Shown: positions 1 to 62,214, numbered from the stretch's first letter. The stretch: DNA of 64,000 nt from Eledone cirrhosa (GCA_964016885.1 OZ024741.1:59644001-59708000); one strand, 5' to 3'. Program-made: numbers and translations. The notes: generated from the letters alone by a model not told the origin.

Positions 1-1190
1 TCCCCTTCATTCTCACTTGGAGATCTAGAGGTTCCCGTGTCTGAGACTTCTGAATCAGGGGTAGATGGGAGGGGTATGTTGTGTGGTGGAGTATTTGTGC
101 ATGTGTTTGTGGAAGTATTTGACAAGGAGGGAGGAGGCAATGGATGGTGTTTCAGTAGGATTTTGTGTGTGGTTGTCTCTGGTCTGTGGTGTTGTGGGAG
201 TGGATGTTGCAGGTTTTTGCGTTGAGTTTGGTTTGGAGTGTTGATGTTGGGGTTTTGGTGTTGGTAATAACACCTCGGTTTGTTTAAGAGAGAGCAAAAG
301 GCCTTTAAGTGTGTGGTTTTTCCCACACTTATGGCACTTAGGTCTTTTCCCCTCCACTAAAATTGAGATGACATCTTCCCCAAGGACGACCCTGTCCGGT
401 ATTTGCTCAACTCTCTCTGGCCTCATTTGTACCAGAACCTCGCTGCAGGTTCCAAACCAGTTATGCCGGTCTGTCCTGTCTACAGATAGGAAGGTGTCCT
501 CATCCTTCTTCAGGATGCAGCGTAAGATCCACCATATGTTGACCTCTGCTGGGATCCTGGTTATTTTTATTTTGTAGGATCTTCTTCCCATGTATGTGGG
601 GGAAGAAGATGTGTTGATCCGTTTTTATTGGGTGAACCGAGTGTTTTGTGCCAGAGTTTCGCTCTTAAAGAGCATTGACACACTTCCATACTGTTTACCT
701 CTTTGGAGATATGCCATGTCTGGCTTGATATCTGTTAGTGCAGCTTCAATATTGCTTGTTGGGAGCGTTATGGGTTTTTGGTAATAATGTCAACTGTTCT
801 ATGAATTAGTTTCTTTTTTCTTTGTCATTTCTCTTACTTGTGGGGGCTATGTGTATGTGTGGGGTGTCTCCCTCAAACGTCACATATTTGGAAGCTTCTT
901 CCAAATATTGGGATTTTTGGGAAATGTCCATGGAGTAGTATTTAAAATCCTGTTGCTTAGCAACTGTTGCTGCAAATGAAATTTTGTTATTGTTGTTGTC
1001 GGTGGTGATGATGGTCTCATTCGTTTTGTTGCCACTGATTCCTTTTGTTGTGTTGTTGTTGTTCTCATTTATTGTGTTGTTGTTGTTGTTGATATTGCTT
1101 GTGGTGGTGTTAGTATTTGCTACATATACTTCCTTCTGTGTGTGGATACATGTGAGGTTTGTGACGTCAGGCGTGTTCATACTATTCAGG
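1..1190 (-). mobile_element. Frameshifted LINE ORF1-like (gag-like) remnant
   Basis: ORFs 806-1180 and 55-591 on the minus strand. An N/T-rich N-terminus with SFAATVAK is followed by a zinc-knuckle-like RPKCHKCGKNH and a P/T-rich tail, a layout typical of L1/Tx1-type ORF1. Family assignment is inference. Confidence 0.45.
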
Positions 1191-1744
1191 TCACGTCATA
1201 TGTACTATGTAAACGGAGATTTGATACCTGATCATTTTCTTTGTTTTCCATTCTTTTCATTTTATTATAAATTGTTATATTTTTGGATTATCTTCTATCG
1301 CTATTGCCTCATGATTGATCATGATTCTGGTAGATTAACATTAACATTACCATTTATCGGCACATAAGAATAGATTTTGCTTATTGACATCTTTATTTGG
1401 GTAACATTTCCGTGACTTTACTATGTGTTGAAACATCTATATTGTTGTATAGATCTTAGTTCATCAAATGTTATTCCGACATCAGACTAGTATTTATTTG
1501 AAATAACTTTTGGATTTTATCGTTATTGCTAGCAACCGTATATATTATAGATTATTCAACTTTCCTTTTTATGAACCAATAAAGGTACATTATGTTGTGT
1601 AGAAAAAATATCCTACACACGCTAAATATGATTGTGTTTAAGTATAAAATAGCATGTGTCCTTTTCTTTTTACTTTCATTTTTAGTTGATAAGTAAGAAT
1701 ATATGATTTATATTTCATATATATATATTTCATTTATATATATA

Positions 1745-2110
<366 letters not shown>

Positions 2111-3990
2111 CATACATTTTTGTGTGTATATTTCTATCACCTAGCTGGTATTATTATATTAGACGAAAGAAGTACAAAAAATTAAAAAGGAATGAGACAA
2201 AAATATAAAGAACTTCAAATATAAATAAATGTTGGTGACAGAAAAAACGGAGAAAAATAGGAGAAAAAAAACGATTTTGGAGGTAACGAATTTTATGAGT
2301 GAACTAGAGAATATTCAAATGAATAGATATATGCAGTCTTATATTTTATTTTATTTTGTATGTGATTTCCTGTGAAACCTTGACAGCTTTAATAAAAAAA
2401 AATCTTTCATATTTACCGTGTCAAAGAGGTTATACTCATCATTAAGGTGAAATCAATCATAAAGAGTAGGTATGAGTAGTATGAAGCCGATTGGCTACTT
2501 TGACTATACCAGTCTGCGCATGTCACCGACGCTTCTTATCATCACACTTAACTCCCTTTTTTGAAGAAACAAAACGGCGTCCTAGACTCACGATATAAAG
2601 AGATATCAGGTAAAAATCGTAAACTGTTGTATTACATTTTTAACTTACTGTGTTGCATCTTAGCTTTTACTCTTGCTTTGCTAATATACATTGTACTGAG
2701 TTTCTAAAAGGATCCTATCTACATATCAAACAATGCTTCATATGAACTATTCTACTTTGTTAAGCTGTTAATTTTTATATATATTTATATTCTTTTAGAA
2801 ATTATAGGAATGCCAAAAGTAGAAAATATTTTTAACTGAATGTGTGTTAATTTCATGTGTTGGCCGTTCCGTTGTTTGTACCTCAGGAGTAGTATTCGCC
2901 AGAAGCAACCGACATCCAACATGGCACATGCCATATCAAGTGGTCTTCACCATAATTTGTAATCTTTCAATGCATAATAAACTATTATTTTTATTTCTAT
3001 ATATATCTCAAACTGTAAGAAATCATTATTTACAATTTCGATATGCTGAATTAGAAATACATTTAGTTTATAAAATAGCCTTATATATCTTATACTTCAT
3101 TAGTTGAAGAAAAGTGTTTTGCTATTTTTATTCGGCAATGGTGTATGCAGAAATATACCCTGTCTCTGCATTACATTTAATTCTCAGGGATGAATATTTC
3201 CATAATTACAATAAGCTCTATTGGCACGGCATGGACACCAGCACATCTCATTCACCTATAACGGAATTTCACATGCTTATCACCCACTGATGGATATTCT
3301 AATCCCAGTATTATAAACAAAATATATATATTATCGGTCCGTCTGATAATTTCTAATTTTAGGAACGTTTAGAAAATAAATTAGGCATATCTATATTTCT
3401 TATTAAGCTCGGGTTAATGTTATGAGAGGAATAATTCCGTTTTTATAATTATTGAAAATCATTATTATATAAAGATTGTCAGCTTAAAAGACTGAAATAA
3501 ACCAAATGGATCACCTTGGTGATACAATGGAAACAATGATTGCTCTATCTTAATATCACTATTGTTTCCTTAGGAGCCATGTTTGACATTAAATCACGCT
3601 TGTTTTCACTTTACTTTCATGATATATTAAATTATATTATCAATAATATTCATAAATTCTTTACCATTTTCAAACACTTCTCTGTCTGTTAGATGCATAT
3701 CCACTCATACTTACGCATGTATAACTACAAACGCACACATAATCGCATCATATACAGTTTACACACGTACATACATATAACAACACAACACACACACACA
3801 TACACGCACACGCAGACGCACACACCCACACCCACCCACGCACACACACCCCCCACACACACACACATATATATATATATGCGCGTGTGTGTGTGTATGT
3901 ATTTGCAAATTAATAAAATCTTCAAAAAGATATGAAATCTGTCTGTAAGACAATAAAAATATCGAATAGTTATAATTTATAAACATAGTG

Positions 3991-4422: not shown

Positions 4423-4570
4423 CAATATATAACAGTTTTACAAATAAGCTTTGACGTACCCTATTAAAATGCAACCATTGTTTTTGGAAGTCATCCGGAT
4501 GACTTCCAAAAACAATGGTTGCATTTTAATAGGGTACGTCAAAGCTTATTTGTAAAACTGTTATATATTG

Positions 4571-57419: not shown

Positions 57420-57759
57420 AACCAATAAAGGTAAGGAAGGAGTAACCAATCGTCCTTGCCGTTTTATATCACTATATGTATATATATATATATATATGTA
57501 AGTATATATATACACGTAGTAACTCAACAGTTAGTTTTCACCTTGCGGATCTTCACCTTGGGCCTTCATATTCTTAGCGCAGAAATACCCTAGTTTTACT
57601 CTGCGTCTGTTAAAGATTGACCGGTATTTATGAACTATGGGAAAGTGTCTGTCTAAGAGGACGAAACAAATTTTTCTACATTAGTTTTAAAGTTGAGTGA
57701 GAAGAGGAGAGAGAACCAGATAGGCCTACATCACCAACAGCCCTAAGAGCAGTACCCCA

Positions 57760-58146
57760 CCAGGATGCTTTTGCCGAAAGCCCGAAGCTTTTCCCCTTCA
57801 ACAACAATGCAACACACCCGATGTAGTTTATGAAGCTGTGGTCACTTCCAACCGATCAAATCAAAAACAGGGTTAAATGCTTTGTAGGTATGGCGGAGTG
57901 CCGGTTTAAGAAACGATTCCTGAACCATCAGTGGACCTTTAGCTACTCAGACAAACGATCGTCCACGAAACTCGCGAGCCACGTATGGTCCCTCAAACTC
58001 TCACGTGTAGACTACTCCATCCAATGGAAAGCTATAACTAAGTCCAAGCAATACGCAAGGGGTAATCCGTCTTATGGACTGTGAATTGAAGAAAGGATCA
58101 ATAATCTGAGGAGATTACGCAATAGCGATTGCCTAAACTTAAGAAA

Positions 58147-58148
<2 letters not shown>
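57760..58148 (+). mobile_element. PLE GIY-YIG fragment
   Basis: CFCRK..VVYEAVV..FVGMAECRFKKRFLNH..STKLASHVWSLK..IQWK. Confidence 0.75.
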
Positions 58149-58202
<54 letters not shown>

Positions 58203-58204
<2 letters not shown>

Positions 58205-61200
58205 AGGAGGTTATAGTTAACTTGAAGCATTGTGTAATGAGGTATAAACGTTTGTATATGTATAATAAAGCTAAAACAATGCAGGTATGGACATAGAATA
58301 TAGAAAGCAAATGCAAAAGATATTGTTGACAATTAGTCTTTTACCTTAGATTTATTTAAATGTCCTAAATTTTCGAGATAATATTTCTTCTTCAGAAGGA
58401 ATAAAGTTGTCAAACCAGTGTTCTAAAAAGCTTGCCAAGTCATGCTGACAGGAAATGGTATAGAGTATATGTTCTATCTCTAATTTCAAAGAGTTAGGAT
58501 TAGTTGGATAAAGAGTAGTCTCCCTTTAAGAGGGGTTTGTTTATGTTTTTTTTGTTTTTTTGGTTTATTTGTACATGCCTGTTTAATTGTGTGGGAGAAT
58601 GCATGAAGGTGTAAGTATGTGAGTGTGTGTGAGTGTGAGAAGATATGTCTATACGTAAATGTGGGGGATAGATGTTATCTCGTGTTAGAACAGGTTTAGT
58701 GTGTGTATGTGTGAGAGAGAATAAGTGGAGGTGTAAGCGTGTGTGTGTGTGTGTGCGTGTGGGGTGTGTGTAAATATGGGGCTAGGAGCTCTATCAAGTT
58801 ATAAATTGGGTGTTGAGTTCTAGTCTATTATTAATTGGTGGTTGTGTTTTGTCTATAATTAGTGCTTCCTTAATTCTAAGATTGCCGAGGTTTCTTTCCT
58901 TAGTTTCTATCCTAACTGTTATGGTTTTGTCGGTGTTTTTGCATTTAACTAGGTGTTTCTTAAATGAGGAAGCGTTAGTATTGAGGTGTTCTTTTATTCT
59001 TATGTGAAGTGGTCTGGTGGTGCTACCTACGTAGAAGTTGTTGCATTTGTCACACTCTAGTCTGTATACGACGTAAGCCTGGTGGCATAGGTCTGTGTCG
59101 TTCATGGGGCAGTTGGCTAGTCTGCAGCAGTTGTCATGTCCGGTGGAGTGTCTTTTGGTTAGCTGACCGCGTAGTGAAGGACCTGAGTGGGCCAGTTGGA
59201 TATCTAGTCCTTCTCGTCCGATAGCTCTGCGGATGGCTGTTGTTTTTTCTTCACTGAAGTGTGGGAGCTTCAGGAAGCAAGTGTTAGTGCCTCGGGTGTG
59301 GTGTCCTCTGTTCTTTCTGGCACGGTTTGTGGTGGATGTCGTGTATCCGTTCAGTTTGAGTACTTCCAGGAAATGTGTGGTGTGTGTGTCTCGGTCTCTA
59401 GTGTCGGTGCATTTGTTCCGGATACGTGCCAGTTCGTTCCTTATGTATCTGAACTTGGCACCGAGTGGGAGGGCCGATCTGAAATGTACGAACAGGTCCC
59501 TGCTGGCGGCTTTTTTATAGAAGCAGGTGTGGATGTTGCCTTCCTCTGTTACCCTGAGTTTGAAGTCCAGCAGGGATAGGGATCCGCGGTCATCGGGGTG
59601 TTCCATGCTGAACTTTATACTGGCGTCCATGCTGGAGAATGTTGTGTATATTTTATCTGCCTACTCACGGGATGATGTAAGGATGAGTATGTCATCTACA
59701 TATCAGGTGAAGAAGGTATGGGAATGGCTGGTGTTGAGGGCTCGGCATTCTAGCTGGTTCATATAGGTGATGGCCAGCAGGCCCGATAGGCTGGATCCCA
59801 TGGGTAATCCTGTTGTCTGTCTGTATGTGTGGTGGTGGAAGGTGAAGTACGTGTTGTCTACTGTGAAGGACAAAAGCTGGTGTATGTCCGTCGGGTGGAG
59901 GCCGTAGCAGTGGATGTCCTCTGCGACCACGCAGTCCGTCAATAAATCGACAGCTGGATGAGCGGGGACTGTAGTGTAGAGGGAGACAACGTCGAGGCTA
60001 AAGGCTTAACTATTTAGTTTAAGTTGTTCTGGCTGGAGTTGGTGTAGTCTACGTATAACTTCGTCGGAGCTACTGACATGCCCGGGAAAGGTGGAGAGTA
60101 GAGGCTTGAGGACCTGGGAGAGGAGCCAGGAAATTTTGTATAGGGGTCCTTCTATGCTAGAGACGATGGGTCTTATTTGCGTATTAGTGCTATTCTTGTG
60201 GGTCTTGATGAGGTGGTAGAAAGTGGGCAGTCTGCTATTTCTAGTGGTGTAGTTGAGCTTAACTTTATTAGGGAGTTATCTTCTCCTACATATATCGAAC
60301 CAGATCTGGGCTGCGGTCATGTCCGGGATTTCTGTGTATAATTCATTGTCGTTTAGGTGTTCAAAGGCTAGGTTGTTGTATGTGGCTTGAGAGATGACGC
60401 AAAACTCTTTACCTTTGTCGGATGGTAATTATATAAGTTCCCTATTCCGTAGGTTCTTCAGGGCGAGTTGTTGTGTCCTGGAGAGGTTTGGGGCTATCTT
60501 CTTCTGTTTCCGTAAGATGTTAAATACGGAATGTTTTAGCCTCGAGAGGTTTTCTTCAAGCTCGCGGTTGGCAGGCGGTGGACAGAGTGGGCGATCCAGT
60601 TGGTATATCGGGAATCTGGGTTTGATAGATTCCGTGGTGTTGTTGCCGAGAGTCGATATCCATTTTAGTTGGTAGGCAGCCCGACAGAAATTCGTTTCTA
60701 TGTCGAGCCATAATTTGTCGTCCAGTCTCTGTTTCAATATGAACTTGGGGCCCAGGCTGAGGAGGTCTAAATCCTCTCGGGAGAGGGATCCTGTCAAGTC
60801 TGTGACGTGGTGTTTTGCGTCAGGTGTGTTGTTGGTCGGGGCGCCGCTAGGTTCGGTGTTGGTACCGTCTTGTTCGCCTCTGTTGGTGTTTAGAGTTGGG
60901 ATGTTGTTAAGACAGTTGGCCGTTCTGAGTTTGAGAAATGATTGCGTTAGACGTATTTTCTCGTAGTCTCGGCGATGATGGTATGACCTGTCTATAGCGG
61001 CGGAGATGACTCTGGACATAGGTTCTGGGGTTTCAGCGAGTTGTGGTACAAGGCTGGAAATAGTCCGTATGTGCGGTGTAGGTGTTGTATGAGTTTTCAT
61101 AGGCAGAATTTTTGTATGTAACTAAGTGATCGTTTGAGGCCTGGTGATTTGAAGCATGTTGGTAAGGTGGACATTTTTGATAGTTTTGGGGATGATGTTG

Positions 61201-61820
61201 TCATTCAGGCATCGTTTTAGGAAGTTTATTTGGCAGCCGGCTTTGGCGCGCTTTTTAGATAGCTGGAAGAGTTTCTTTACAGTTGTGAACTGGGCCTGGC
61301 TCAGGCATAAGGAAAGGAGGAGGTTTTAGTTCACTTGAAGCATTGTGTAATGAGGTATAAAAAGCTTGCCTCGTCATGCTGACAGGAAATGGTATAGAGT
61401 ATCTGTTCTATCTCTAATTTCAAAGAGTTAGGATTAGGTGGATAAAGAGTAGTCTCCCTTTAAGAGGGGTTTGTTTATGTTTTTTTTTGTTTTTTTTTTG
61501 GGGGGGGGGGGGGGGGTTATTTGTACATGCCTGTTTAAGTGTGTGGGAGAATGCATGAAGGTGTAAGTATGTGAGTGTGTGTGTGTGTGAGTGTGAGAAG
61601 ATATGTCTATACGTAAATGTGGGGGATAGATGTTTTTTAGAACACTGGTTTGACAACTTTATTCCCTCTGAAGAAGAGATATTATCTCGATAATTTAGGA
61701 CATTTAAATAAATCTAAGGTAAAAGACTAATTGTCAACAATATCTTTTGCATTTGCATTCTTTATTCTATGTCCATACCTGCATTGTTTTAGCTTTATTA
61801 TACATACACAAACGTTTATA
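58203..61820 (-). mobile_element. Near full-length PLE (YVDD type, Poseidon-like by inference) with direct and inverted pLTR parts
   Basis: 3' pLTR 58203-58676, direct 5' copy 61316-61634 and inverted segment 61634-61820. TA tracts on both sides. HHR-like motif at 58362-58401 (-) and 61662-61702 (+). Confidence 0.92.
58794..61343 (-). pseudogene. PLE polyprotein (RT plus GIY-YIG), disrupted by stops and frameshifts
   Basis: ATG at 61343. FLKRCLNDNIIPK, LLSLGPKF, PSDKG, FYHLIKTHK, RPIVS, FSLDVVSLYT, GLPMGSSLS, YVDD, SIKFSME, LLDF and VVYRLECDKCNNFYVGSTTRPLHIRIKEH. Confidence 0.92.
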
Positions 61821-62214
61821 TATATATATATATATATATATCAACAATCAGAGCAATATATAAGATTATGGTGATCGGGAGAAGAAATACTGTATATATT
61901 TTATCAAATGATTCTATAAACTTACTTTCTTATATATTGCTTTGATTGTTGATTATTTAATTAATTAATTCGTCATTAAGTGAATGGTTGCCAAAAACAC
62001 ACACATATATATGCATAAACTATACAGAGCCATATATATATATATATATATGTATATGGCTCTGTATGTATATGTAAATCTCTATATTTTATATACTCCC
62101 GTAAGGTTGAGTAAAACTTTAGGCAGTATTCGGCTGCGCTTTCTAGCAACCAGCCTATTCGCCGTCAGGCACCAATCACAAGCTTTCTGATTTGACCACT
62201 GGCCATGTGACAAT

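What the first reader, a model, noticed from the sequence alone, without database searches (positions are those of the whole stretch)
58203..61820. Reciprocal deletion and inversion: the ribozyme/intron segment missing from the 5' pLTR reappears inverted at the element end
Seen: the 3' pLTR is A(58676-58430)-B(58429-58243)-C(58242-58203) in element sense. The 5' direct copy (61634-61316) is A-C, with B removed at a TAAA microhomology. That same B segment sits inverted at 61634-61820 and ends GTTTATA against (TA)n. The order invB-A-C-ORF cannot arise from one simple inversion. Inference: a second cDNA primed from the opposite target strand copied B on the same RNA, the main cDNA skipped the occupied segment and continued into A, and the two were joined. 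This would be a fossil of twin priming in a PLE.
Basis: partly seen in the sequence, partly recalled or inferred. Interest (0 to 1): 0.75.

Follow-up and report, generated by a model that had tools for sequence, protein, structure and literature searches.

The report
Penelope insertion with swapped ribozyme segment
This dead jumping gene has the two back-to-back arms that are common in its family, plus one rare extra: the stretch that forms the short arm is missing from the long arm, likely because the long DNA copy hopped over RNA that its partner was already copying, though chance or later DNA slippage could also explain it.

Summary
The deletion junction occurs once in the genome. But inverted B is the family's ordinary second arm. 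Its (TA)n end is a fixed terminus with 1,373 matches, and 96 of 124 two-armed insertions pair one tailed with one tailless arm. Arms share a donor, and 37 of 93 tailless arms stop near B's start. Only the matching deletion is unusual. In 93 of those 96 insertions both arms copy the same RNA stretch. The second priming site is no general barrier: 49 breaks per 2,212 intact crossings, against 63 per 2,902 at a control site. One of six hops leaving that site lands at the partner's end; chance is about 1% per hop. My odds: RT skip during insertion 0.40, chance 0.31, DNA hairpin slippage 0.25. The scan noted a similar hop in another genome (e1-9039794); L1 has a printed precedent.

The parts
58203..58248 (-). 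C, the 46-nt tail (+1 to +46): 3' end of the long, tailed arm against (TA)n
   Evidence: the +46 end is shared by most of the 30 copies fetched
58243..58429 (-). B in the intact 3' pLTR (element 2933 to +6)
58364..58398 (-). minimal hammerhead motif in the 3' pLTR (CUGAAGA core, extra base before G10.1-C11.1, palindromic AAUU helix III)
   Evidence: core and pairs kept in 149-156 of 156 copies, except U4 at 118; features as described in PMC4209133 passages; no Rfam hit
58430..58676 (-). A in the 3' pLTR (part of the 3' UTR)
58794..61340 (-). decayed ORF, broken by stops: RT followed by a C-terminal GIY-YIG endonuclease
   Evidence: frames; PF01541 E=1.5e-6 (above cutoff), PF00078 E=1.1e-4 (partial, below cutoff); the 5' limit is approximate
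61316..61361 (-). C', 5' copy of the tail sequence, running on into the ORF
   Evidence: 96% to C
61358..61361 (-). TAAA microhomology at the A'-C' deletion joint (B removed)
   Evidence: 1 match in the genome
61358..61634 (-). A', 5' copy of A (element 2686-2938): last piece of the long arm
   Evidence: shares rare allele 2865C with the 3' A
61634..61820 (+). inverted B: the short, tailless second arm (element 2933 to +6), joined head to head to A' and ending GTTTATA against (TA)n
   Evidence: shares rare allele 3090A with the 3' B
61665..61699 (+). minimal hammerhead motif inside inverted B
58149..58202 (.). (TA)n target at the tailed end
61817..61841 (.). (TA)n target at the tailless end; a target-site duplication cannot be defined inside TA runs

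Best explanation
This is a decayed two-armed Penelope-like insertion whose short inverted arm (B) is the family's ordinary tailless arm, and whose long arm lacks exactly that stretch at its 5' pLTR, likely because the long cDNA hopped over the partner's RNA:cDNA hybrid at a TAAA microhomology during the same insertion. Steps. (1) Both strands of a (TA)n target are cut and each 3' end primes reverse transcription, one at +46 (tailed) and one at +6 (tailless). The fixed ends are shown; priming is inferred, in line with the two in-vitro start sites in PMC11167929. (2) Both arms come from one donor (shown by shared alleles). (3) The tailless cDNA copied B and stopped at 2933, inside the family's main stopping zone (shown as a distribution; the cause is inferred to be an RNA 5' end or a pause). 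(4) The tailed cDNA copied a full monomer, reached +4 to +1 at the upstream junction, and re-annealed its TAAA end at 2935-2938, where the partner's own TAAAAA end lay. This step is inferred; a swap of the two 3' ends is one way it could happen. (5) It copied A' to 2686 and the two cDNAs were joined head to head in an A/T run (joint shown, order inferred).
For: Both breakpoints match within 1-6 nt. The junction is unique: 1 match for the A-C pattern. Under independence a hop from +1 to +4 lands within 3-5 nt of the partner's 5' end in 0.8-1.3% of trials, or in 7-8% if only TTTA sites are allowed and the partner end is fixed. Same donor: overlapping inverted pairs within a locus differ by 2.1% against 4.7% between loci, with 95% against 56% agreement at polymorphic sites (65 pairs against 3,000 random pairs). 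The window's inverted B and 3' B share allele 3090A, seen in 1 of 177 other copies. Arm types are coordinated: 96 of 124 two-armed insertions are tailed plus tailless, 3 are tailed plus tailed, 1 is tailless plus tailless. Non-overlapping, L1-like cases exist in which the tailed arm stops at the partner's start: 3 of 96 in the sample and 5 of the 49 rows of the genome scan (L326, L327, L341-L343). One half-reciprocal case: in L298 the main arm hops 2204 to 177, and an inverted piece 2003-2213 lies almost wholly inside the deleted part, starting 4-10 nt from the take-off point. L1 precedent: a three-piece, non-overlapping twin-primed GREM1 insertion with a template switch (PMC11702581, passages).
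Against: In 93 of 96 tailed-plus-tailless insertions both arms copy the same stretch, so an occupied segment is normally no obstacle. Of 9 tailed arms that cross a second junction and have a partner, only this one skips B. No barrier signal: 49 non-collinear rows per 2,212 intact crossings at +1 to +8 (27 real by eye) against 63 per 2,902 at a control site in B (about 45-50 real by eye). Of 6 forward hops of 25 nt or more that leave near the tailless site (window, L195, L289, L314, L320, L337), only the window's lands at the partner's end. Both ends of inverted B are hot spots. With 6-20 such hops in the genome, the chance of at least one match is 5-23%, and this locus was picked because it matches. 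If 2933 is the RNA's own 5' end, A' cannot lie upstream on the same molecule. L298 has 44 nt of unexplained filler at its inverted end.
Confidence: 0.4

Rival explanations
1. Coincidence: an ordinary two-armed insertion plus an independent microhomology deletion (RT slip or later repair) whose ends happen to fall at two family hot spots.
For: Internal hops are common: 32 curated forward deletions of 24 nt or more among 223 parsed insertions. 37 of 93 tailless arms end in 2886-2946, and 4 of 93 in 2929-2940. Other deletions land nearby regardless of the partner (L219 at 2910, L201 at 2914, L340 at 2933). In a predicted fold of B the TTTA at 2935 is 29 steps from +4 against 179 linearly (prediction only). 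The chance of at least one match genome-wide is 5-23%, before allowing for selection across the scan.
Against: Per hop the double match is about 1%. L298 shows one-sided coupling at a non-canonical site.
Confidence: 0.31
2. DNA-level hairpin slippage. The insertion first had invB-A-B-C; inverted B and direct B paired as a 187-bp stem with A as the loop during gap filling or later replication, and a polymerase skipped the paired direct arm through TAAA.
For: It predicts the same two breakpoints, since the stem is exactly as long as inverted B (geometry). The precursor layout, with an inverted arm overlapping an intact 5' pLTR, is common (for example L067, L075, L095).
Against: No other one-arm deletion spanning a whole stem was seen among 124 two-armed insertions. 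Hairpin slippage usually removes the whole stem-loop (recalled; the search gave listings only).
Confidence: 0.25
3. Assembly error at a repeat-rich locus.
For: No read or contig spanning the junctions was obtained; the four runs were short contigs of a high-copy repeat.
Against: The locus lies in a 416-Mb contig. Each piece carries its own private substitutions and shares rare alleles with the 3' pLTR. Both joints have microhomology, and both outer ends are canonical.
Confidence: 0.04

Closest known systems
Endonuclease-positive Penelope-like element insertions with partial-tandem pLTRs, an adjacent inverted 5'-truncated copy and a one-sided 30-40 bp tail (PMC8557442 passages; PMC3846280 passages)
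   Same: RT plus C-terminal GIY-YIG ORF, direct pLTRs, head-to-head inverted arm, tail on one end only, hammerhead in the pLTR, (TA)n target.
   Different: The direct 5' pLTR here lacks exactly the stretch carried by the inverted arm. The passages read explain the inverted arm by self-priming or resolution of an intermediate, not by two primed cDNAs.
Poseidon element of Anolis (PAc) in vitro (PMC11167929; parts 1-2 of 4 of the text read)
   Same: Both target strands are cut and extended, reverse transcription starts internally at two adjacent sites whose spacing is the tail, and the protein is a predicted dimer. The +6 and +46 ends here fit this.
   Different: In the parts read, that work does not examine head-to-head joins, hops or whether both starts use one RNA.
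L1 twin priming (Ostertag and Kazazian 2001, not held, known from the reference list and recall; PMC12016303 section 8 and passages; PMC11702581 passages)
   Same: A second cDNA primed from the opposite target end gives a 5' inverted piece joined head to head with microhomology. One L1-made GREM1 insertion has three adjacent non-overlapping pieces with a template switch.
   Different: In L1 the second primer lands at variable internal sites and arms overlap little (median 12 bp where they overlap). Here it uses a fixed site and arms usually overlap over hundreds of bases. In GREM1 the secondary cDNA switched; here it would be the main one.

Membership tests
EN+ Penelope-like element | single ORF with RT and C-terminal GIY-YIG endonuclease | tested here: met
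   GIY-YIG above cutoff in the last frame, RVT_1 partial and below cutoff upstream; ORF broken by stops
EN+ Penelope-like element | pLTRs from partial-tandem organisation | tested here: met
EN+ Penelope-like element | 30-40 bp tail on one end only | tested here: met
   40 nt between +6 and +46; 96 of 124 two-armed insertions are tailed plus tailless
EN+ Penelope-like element | minimal hammerhead motif in the pLTR | tested here: met
   against the features in PMC4209133; no Rfam hit; cleavage not tested
EN+ Penelope-like element | retained 5' intron | tested here: inconclusive
   GT at 3018 is kept in 162 of 166 copies, but the window's acceptor AG is a rare allele; no RNA data
EN+ Penelope-like element | RT phylogeny and clade (Penelope/Poseidon, Neptune, Nematis, Hydra) | not tested
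   No tree built. By eye the EN frame has a CxxC inside the GIY-YIG core and two later histidines, which argues against Hydra as described in PMC8557442.
L1-type twin priming | inverted piece is a second cDNA primed from the opposite target end | tested here: met
   Fixed terminus against (TA)n and shared donor. Arms that cannot be copies of each other exist, such as L107 and L065. Inferred from structure.
L1-type twin priming | both cDNAs made on one RNA molecule | tested here: inconclusive
   Same donor shown; three pLTR copies per insertion are equidistant (74 single changes against 6 shared pairs in 11 insertions). Sibling RNAs are not excluded.
L1-type twin priming | main cDNA stops at or near the second primer (arms barely overlap) | tested here: not met
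   As a family rule: 93 of 96 overlap, and there is no excess of breaks at the site. Met in this copy's 5' pLTR and in a few others.
L1-type twin priming | target-site duplication | not testable with these tools
   both flanks are (TA)n runs and no empty allele was available

The most novel reading that the evidence does not exclude
A dimeric Penelope reverse transcriptase copies one RNA from both target ends at once, and the two nascent cDNAs can trade places: the long cDNA's TAAA end replaces the partner's TAAAAA end at the partner's stalled position. This locus and L298 would be genomic records of such a hand-over.
Probability: 0.3. Interest if true: 0.65.

Novelty: new variant of a known kind. 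Interest (0 to 1): 0.4.

Why it matters
How Penelope-like elements build inverted pLTRs and one-sided tails is still open (PMC8557442 passages call for mechanistic work). A deletion that mirrors the partner arm is the kind of rare event that would tie both cDNAs to one RNA molecule at one moment, and it suggests a direct assay in the existing in-vitro system. The more solid result is family-wide. The two arms are separately primed at two fixed sites from one donor, usually overlap, and the second site does not block the first enzyme, which constrains models toward strand displacement, sequential priming or sibling RNAs. As one case chosen for its match, this locus alone does not settle the question.

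Tried and rejected
One inversion: gives invB-invA-C, not the observed order. Two nested inversions: would have to recreate the family's canonical tailless end by accident. Family variant lacking B: 1 match for the A-C pattern (exact, so mutated siblings could be missed) and no second TAAA-to-A landing among 49 rows. Splicing of B: none of the 5 possible registers gives GT-AG on either strand. Fold-back as the origin of canonical tailless arms: rejected because in copies such as L107 and L065 each arm holds sequence the other lacks. Barrier at the second priming site: looked enriched in my 223-insertion sample but vanished against a genome-wide control. The control site holds a short palindrome that attracts head-to-head joints, and rows were classed by eye. 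One search was a mis-designed control and is not used; one search failed on a private variant. Which pLTR the inverted arm came from: no signal. Reads: four contig runs (three from one sample) held no listed piece across either joint; depth fell at both joints, but short contigs of a repeat cannot show absence. Rfam found no hammerhead in B. The bioRxiv retrozyme preprint (10.64898/2026.07.22.740005, passages) had nothing on inverted arms; its supplements are closed and no supplements of any paper were read.

Full report
Observation. The window holds a Penelope-like element on the minus strand, 58203-61820, between two (TA)n runs. Element coordinates: position 1 = window 61361, monomer 3113 nt. 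From the 5' flank the element reads inverted B (+6 back to 2933), A' (2686-2938), C' and the ORF (1-3113), then the tail (+1 to +46). The A'-C' joint removes 179 nt at a 4-nt TTTA microhomology. Inverted B covers that gap plus 1-6 nt on one side and 2-6 nt on the other. The ORF is broken by stops but keeps a GIY-YIG domain above the Pfam cutoff and a partial RT match. B holds a minimal hammerhead whose core and eight tested pairs are kept in 149-156 of 156 copies, with U4 the exception at 118. It has the extra base before G10.1-C11.1 and the palindromic helix III described for PLE ribozymes (PMC4209133, passages). An intron in B is not supported: the obvious acceptor depends on a rare allele.

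The family. The genome (G000, 3.0 Gb) gave 1,513 candidates for the pLTR and 351 for the ORF start, of which 40 each were scored. I fetched copies selected three ways: by 3' tail, by ORF start, and by the tailless end, using most of the first 100 listed of 1,373 tailless matches. From these I parsed 223 insertions. The sample is not random; duplicates of the same place were dropped by hand. The end of inverted B against (TA)n is the family's second fixed terminus, with 1,373 exact matches against 1 for the reversed control. Of 124 two-armed insertions, 96 pair a tailed with a tailless arm, 3 are tailed plus tailed, 1 is tailless plus tailless, and 24 have another or a cut end. Overlapping inverted pairs within a locus differ by 2.1% (65 pairs) against 4.7% between loci, and agree at 95% against 56% of polymorphic sites. 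In the window, inverted B shares allele 3090A with the 3' B (1 of 177 other copies) and A' shares 2865C with the 3' A (3 of 136), so all pieces come from one donor. In copies such as L107 and L065 each arm holds sequence the other lacks, so canonical arms are separately primed rather than folded back (inference). This agrees with the two internal start sites and two-strand extension shown in vitro for the Anolis element (PMC11167929, parts 1-2 of 4 read). It also matches the described layout of an inverted 5'-truncated copy with a one-sided tail (PMC8557442 and PMC3846280, passages). The inner end of inverted B is also typical: 37 of 93 tailless arms shorter than a monomer end in 2886-2946, and 4 of 93 in 2929-2940.

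What is special. Only the deletion. Its junction pattern matches once in the genome. Internal hops are common, with 32 curated forward deletions of 24 nt or more besides this one. I asked whether they are tied to the partner arm.

For coupling. A hop from +1 to +4 drawn from the observed sizes lands within 3-5 nt of a partner end drawn from the observed ends in 0.8-1.3% of trials. In L298 the main arm hops 2204 to 177, and an inverted piece 2003-2213 begins 4-10 nt from the take-off point and lies almost wholly inside the deleted part. That is a one-sided match at a non-canonical site, with 44 nt of unexplained filler. Some insertions have the L1-like non-overlapping form, in which the tailed arm stops at the partner's start: 3 of 96 in the sample and 5 of 49 rows in a genome scan.

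Against coupling. In 93 of 96 tailed-plus-tailless insertions both arms copy the same stretch, and this is the only one of 9 partnered tailed arms crossing a second junction that skips B. A genome-wide pattern for breaks at +1 to +8 gave 49 rows against 2,212 intact crossings, of which 27 rows (21 insertions) are real stops, joints or hops. I fetched or already held 41 of the 49 and judged the other 8 from the printed match. The same design at a control site in B gave 63 rows against 2,902, about 45-50 real by eye and none fetched. So the second priming site is not a general barrier. Of six forward hops of 25 nt or more leaving near it (window, L195, L289, L314, L320, L337), only the window's lands at the partner's end. 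With 6-20 such hops in the genome, at least one chance match has probability 5-23%, and the locus was chosen for its match.

Mechanism. The second-arm origin of inverted B is well supported; I put it at about 0.9. For the deletion I rank a skip by the main reverse transcriptase over the partner's RNA:cDNA hybrid at 0.40. Both cDNA ends read TAAA at the landing site, so a swap of 3' ends is a simple route (inference). An independent deletion at two hot spots gets 0.31. Slippage across a DNA hairpin formed by inverted and direct B, which predicts the same breakpoints, gets 0.25, and misassembly 0.04. One difficulty for the skip: if the stop cluster at 2886-2946 marks the RNA's 5' end, A' must come from another template. 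Many long arms do run past that zone into A, so longer RNAs or template jumps exist. Public runs did not help: short contigs, none listed across a joint.

Comparison. The element works like, and by the tested features belongs to, the EN+ Penelope-like elements; its clade was not determined. It resembles L1 twin priming in having a second target-primed cDNA but differs in the fixed second site and the usual overlap of arms (PMC12016303, section 8 and passages). A three-piece, non-overlapping twin-primed insertion with a template switch is printed for L1 acting on GREM1 mRNA (PMC11702581, passages). Two searches for twin priming with Penelope terms (listings only) showed no paper applying it to PLEs; most subscription journals are not covered. 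The original twin-priming paper was not held and is recalled. The scan itself has several unchecked notes on twin-primed PLE arms and one on a base-precise hop in another genome; these are leads, not support.

Verdict. A real and precisely described structure. The inverted arm is ordinary for the family. The matching deletion is a rare variant that more likely than not is coupled to it, but one selected case cannot separate an RNA-level skip from DNA slippage or chance. Interest 0.4.

Noticed in passing
L206 (3932-4211), L208 (3596-3735), L224 (4275-4662), L225 (3935-4320), L320 (1477-1875): Tiny insertions built from repeated hops between about 3063-3068 or +3 and +80 to +103; L224 holds four full copies and one partial copy of an 82-nt unit (+3 to +84). 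They hint at a short RNA species or a third start near +84.
   Followed up: partly
element positions 2886-2946 (window 58416-58476): Strong stopping zone for both arm types (37 of 93 tailless, 20 of 55 tailed), just upstream of the hammerhead; a candidate transcription start region.
   Followed up: partly
element positions +11 to +37 at the upstream junction (L109, L186, L190, L194, L203, L205, L214, L291, L295): Near-full-length arms often stop 9-35 nt past +46, as if meeting something at the tailed start site after one lap. No control was run.
   Followed up: no
element position 2995/2996; L069, L229: A few arms end at 2996-2998, right after the predicted ribozyme cut; too few to test.
   Followed up: no
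L191 around 4437-4480: A long arm ends with two short re-copies of +3 to +12 before joining (TA)n, a stutter at the tailless site.
   Followed up: no
11 insertions with three pLTR copies (L065, L067, L074-L076, L079, L087, L091, L093, L095, L097): The three copies are equidistant (28, 24 and 22 single changes; 3, 2 and 1 shared), consistent with one template sequence for all three, as from a very young donor or a circular monomer.
   Followed up: partly
L119 2374-2400 and 3982-4008: A 27-nt micro-inversion (1548-1574) is present in both arms, so it was inherited from the donor or mirrored.
   Followed up: no
window 57336-57422 (+): Hammerhead-like sequence of another repeat; weak Rfam Hammerhead_1 match at 57387-57422 (E=0.033, below gathering).
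   Followed up: partly
window 57827-58148 (+): Decayed frame that by eye resembles the endonuclease end of another retroelement and stops at the (TA)n run into which this element's tail is joined; no Pfam match.
   Followed up: partly
L086 minus strand: An uninterrupted 1,156-aa frame that looks like a non-LTR retrotransposon ORF2 lies next to a family copy (label by eye).
   Followed up: no
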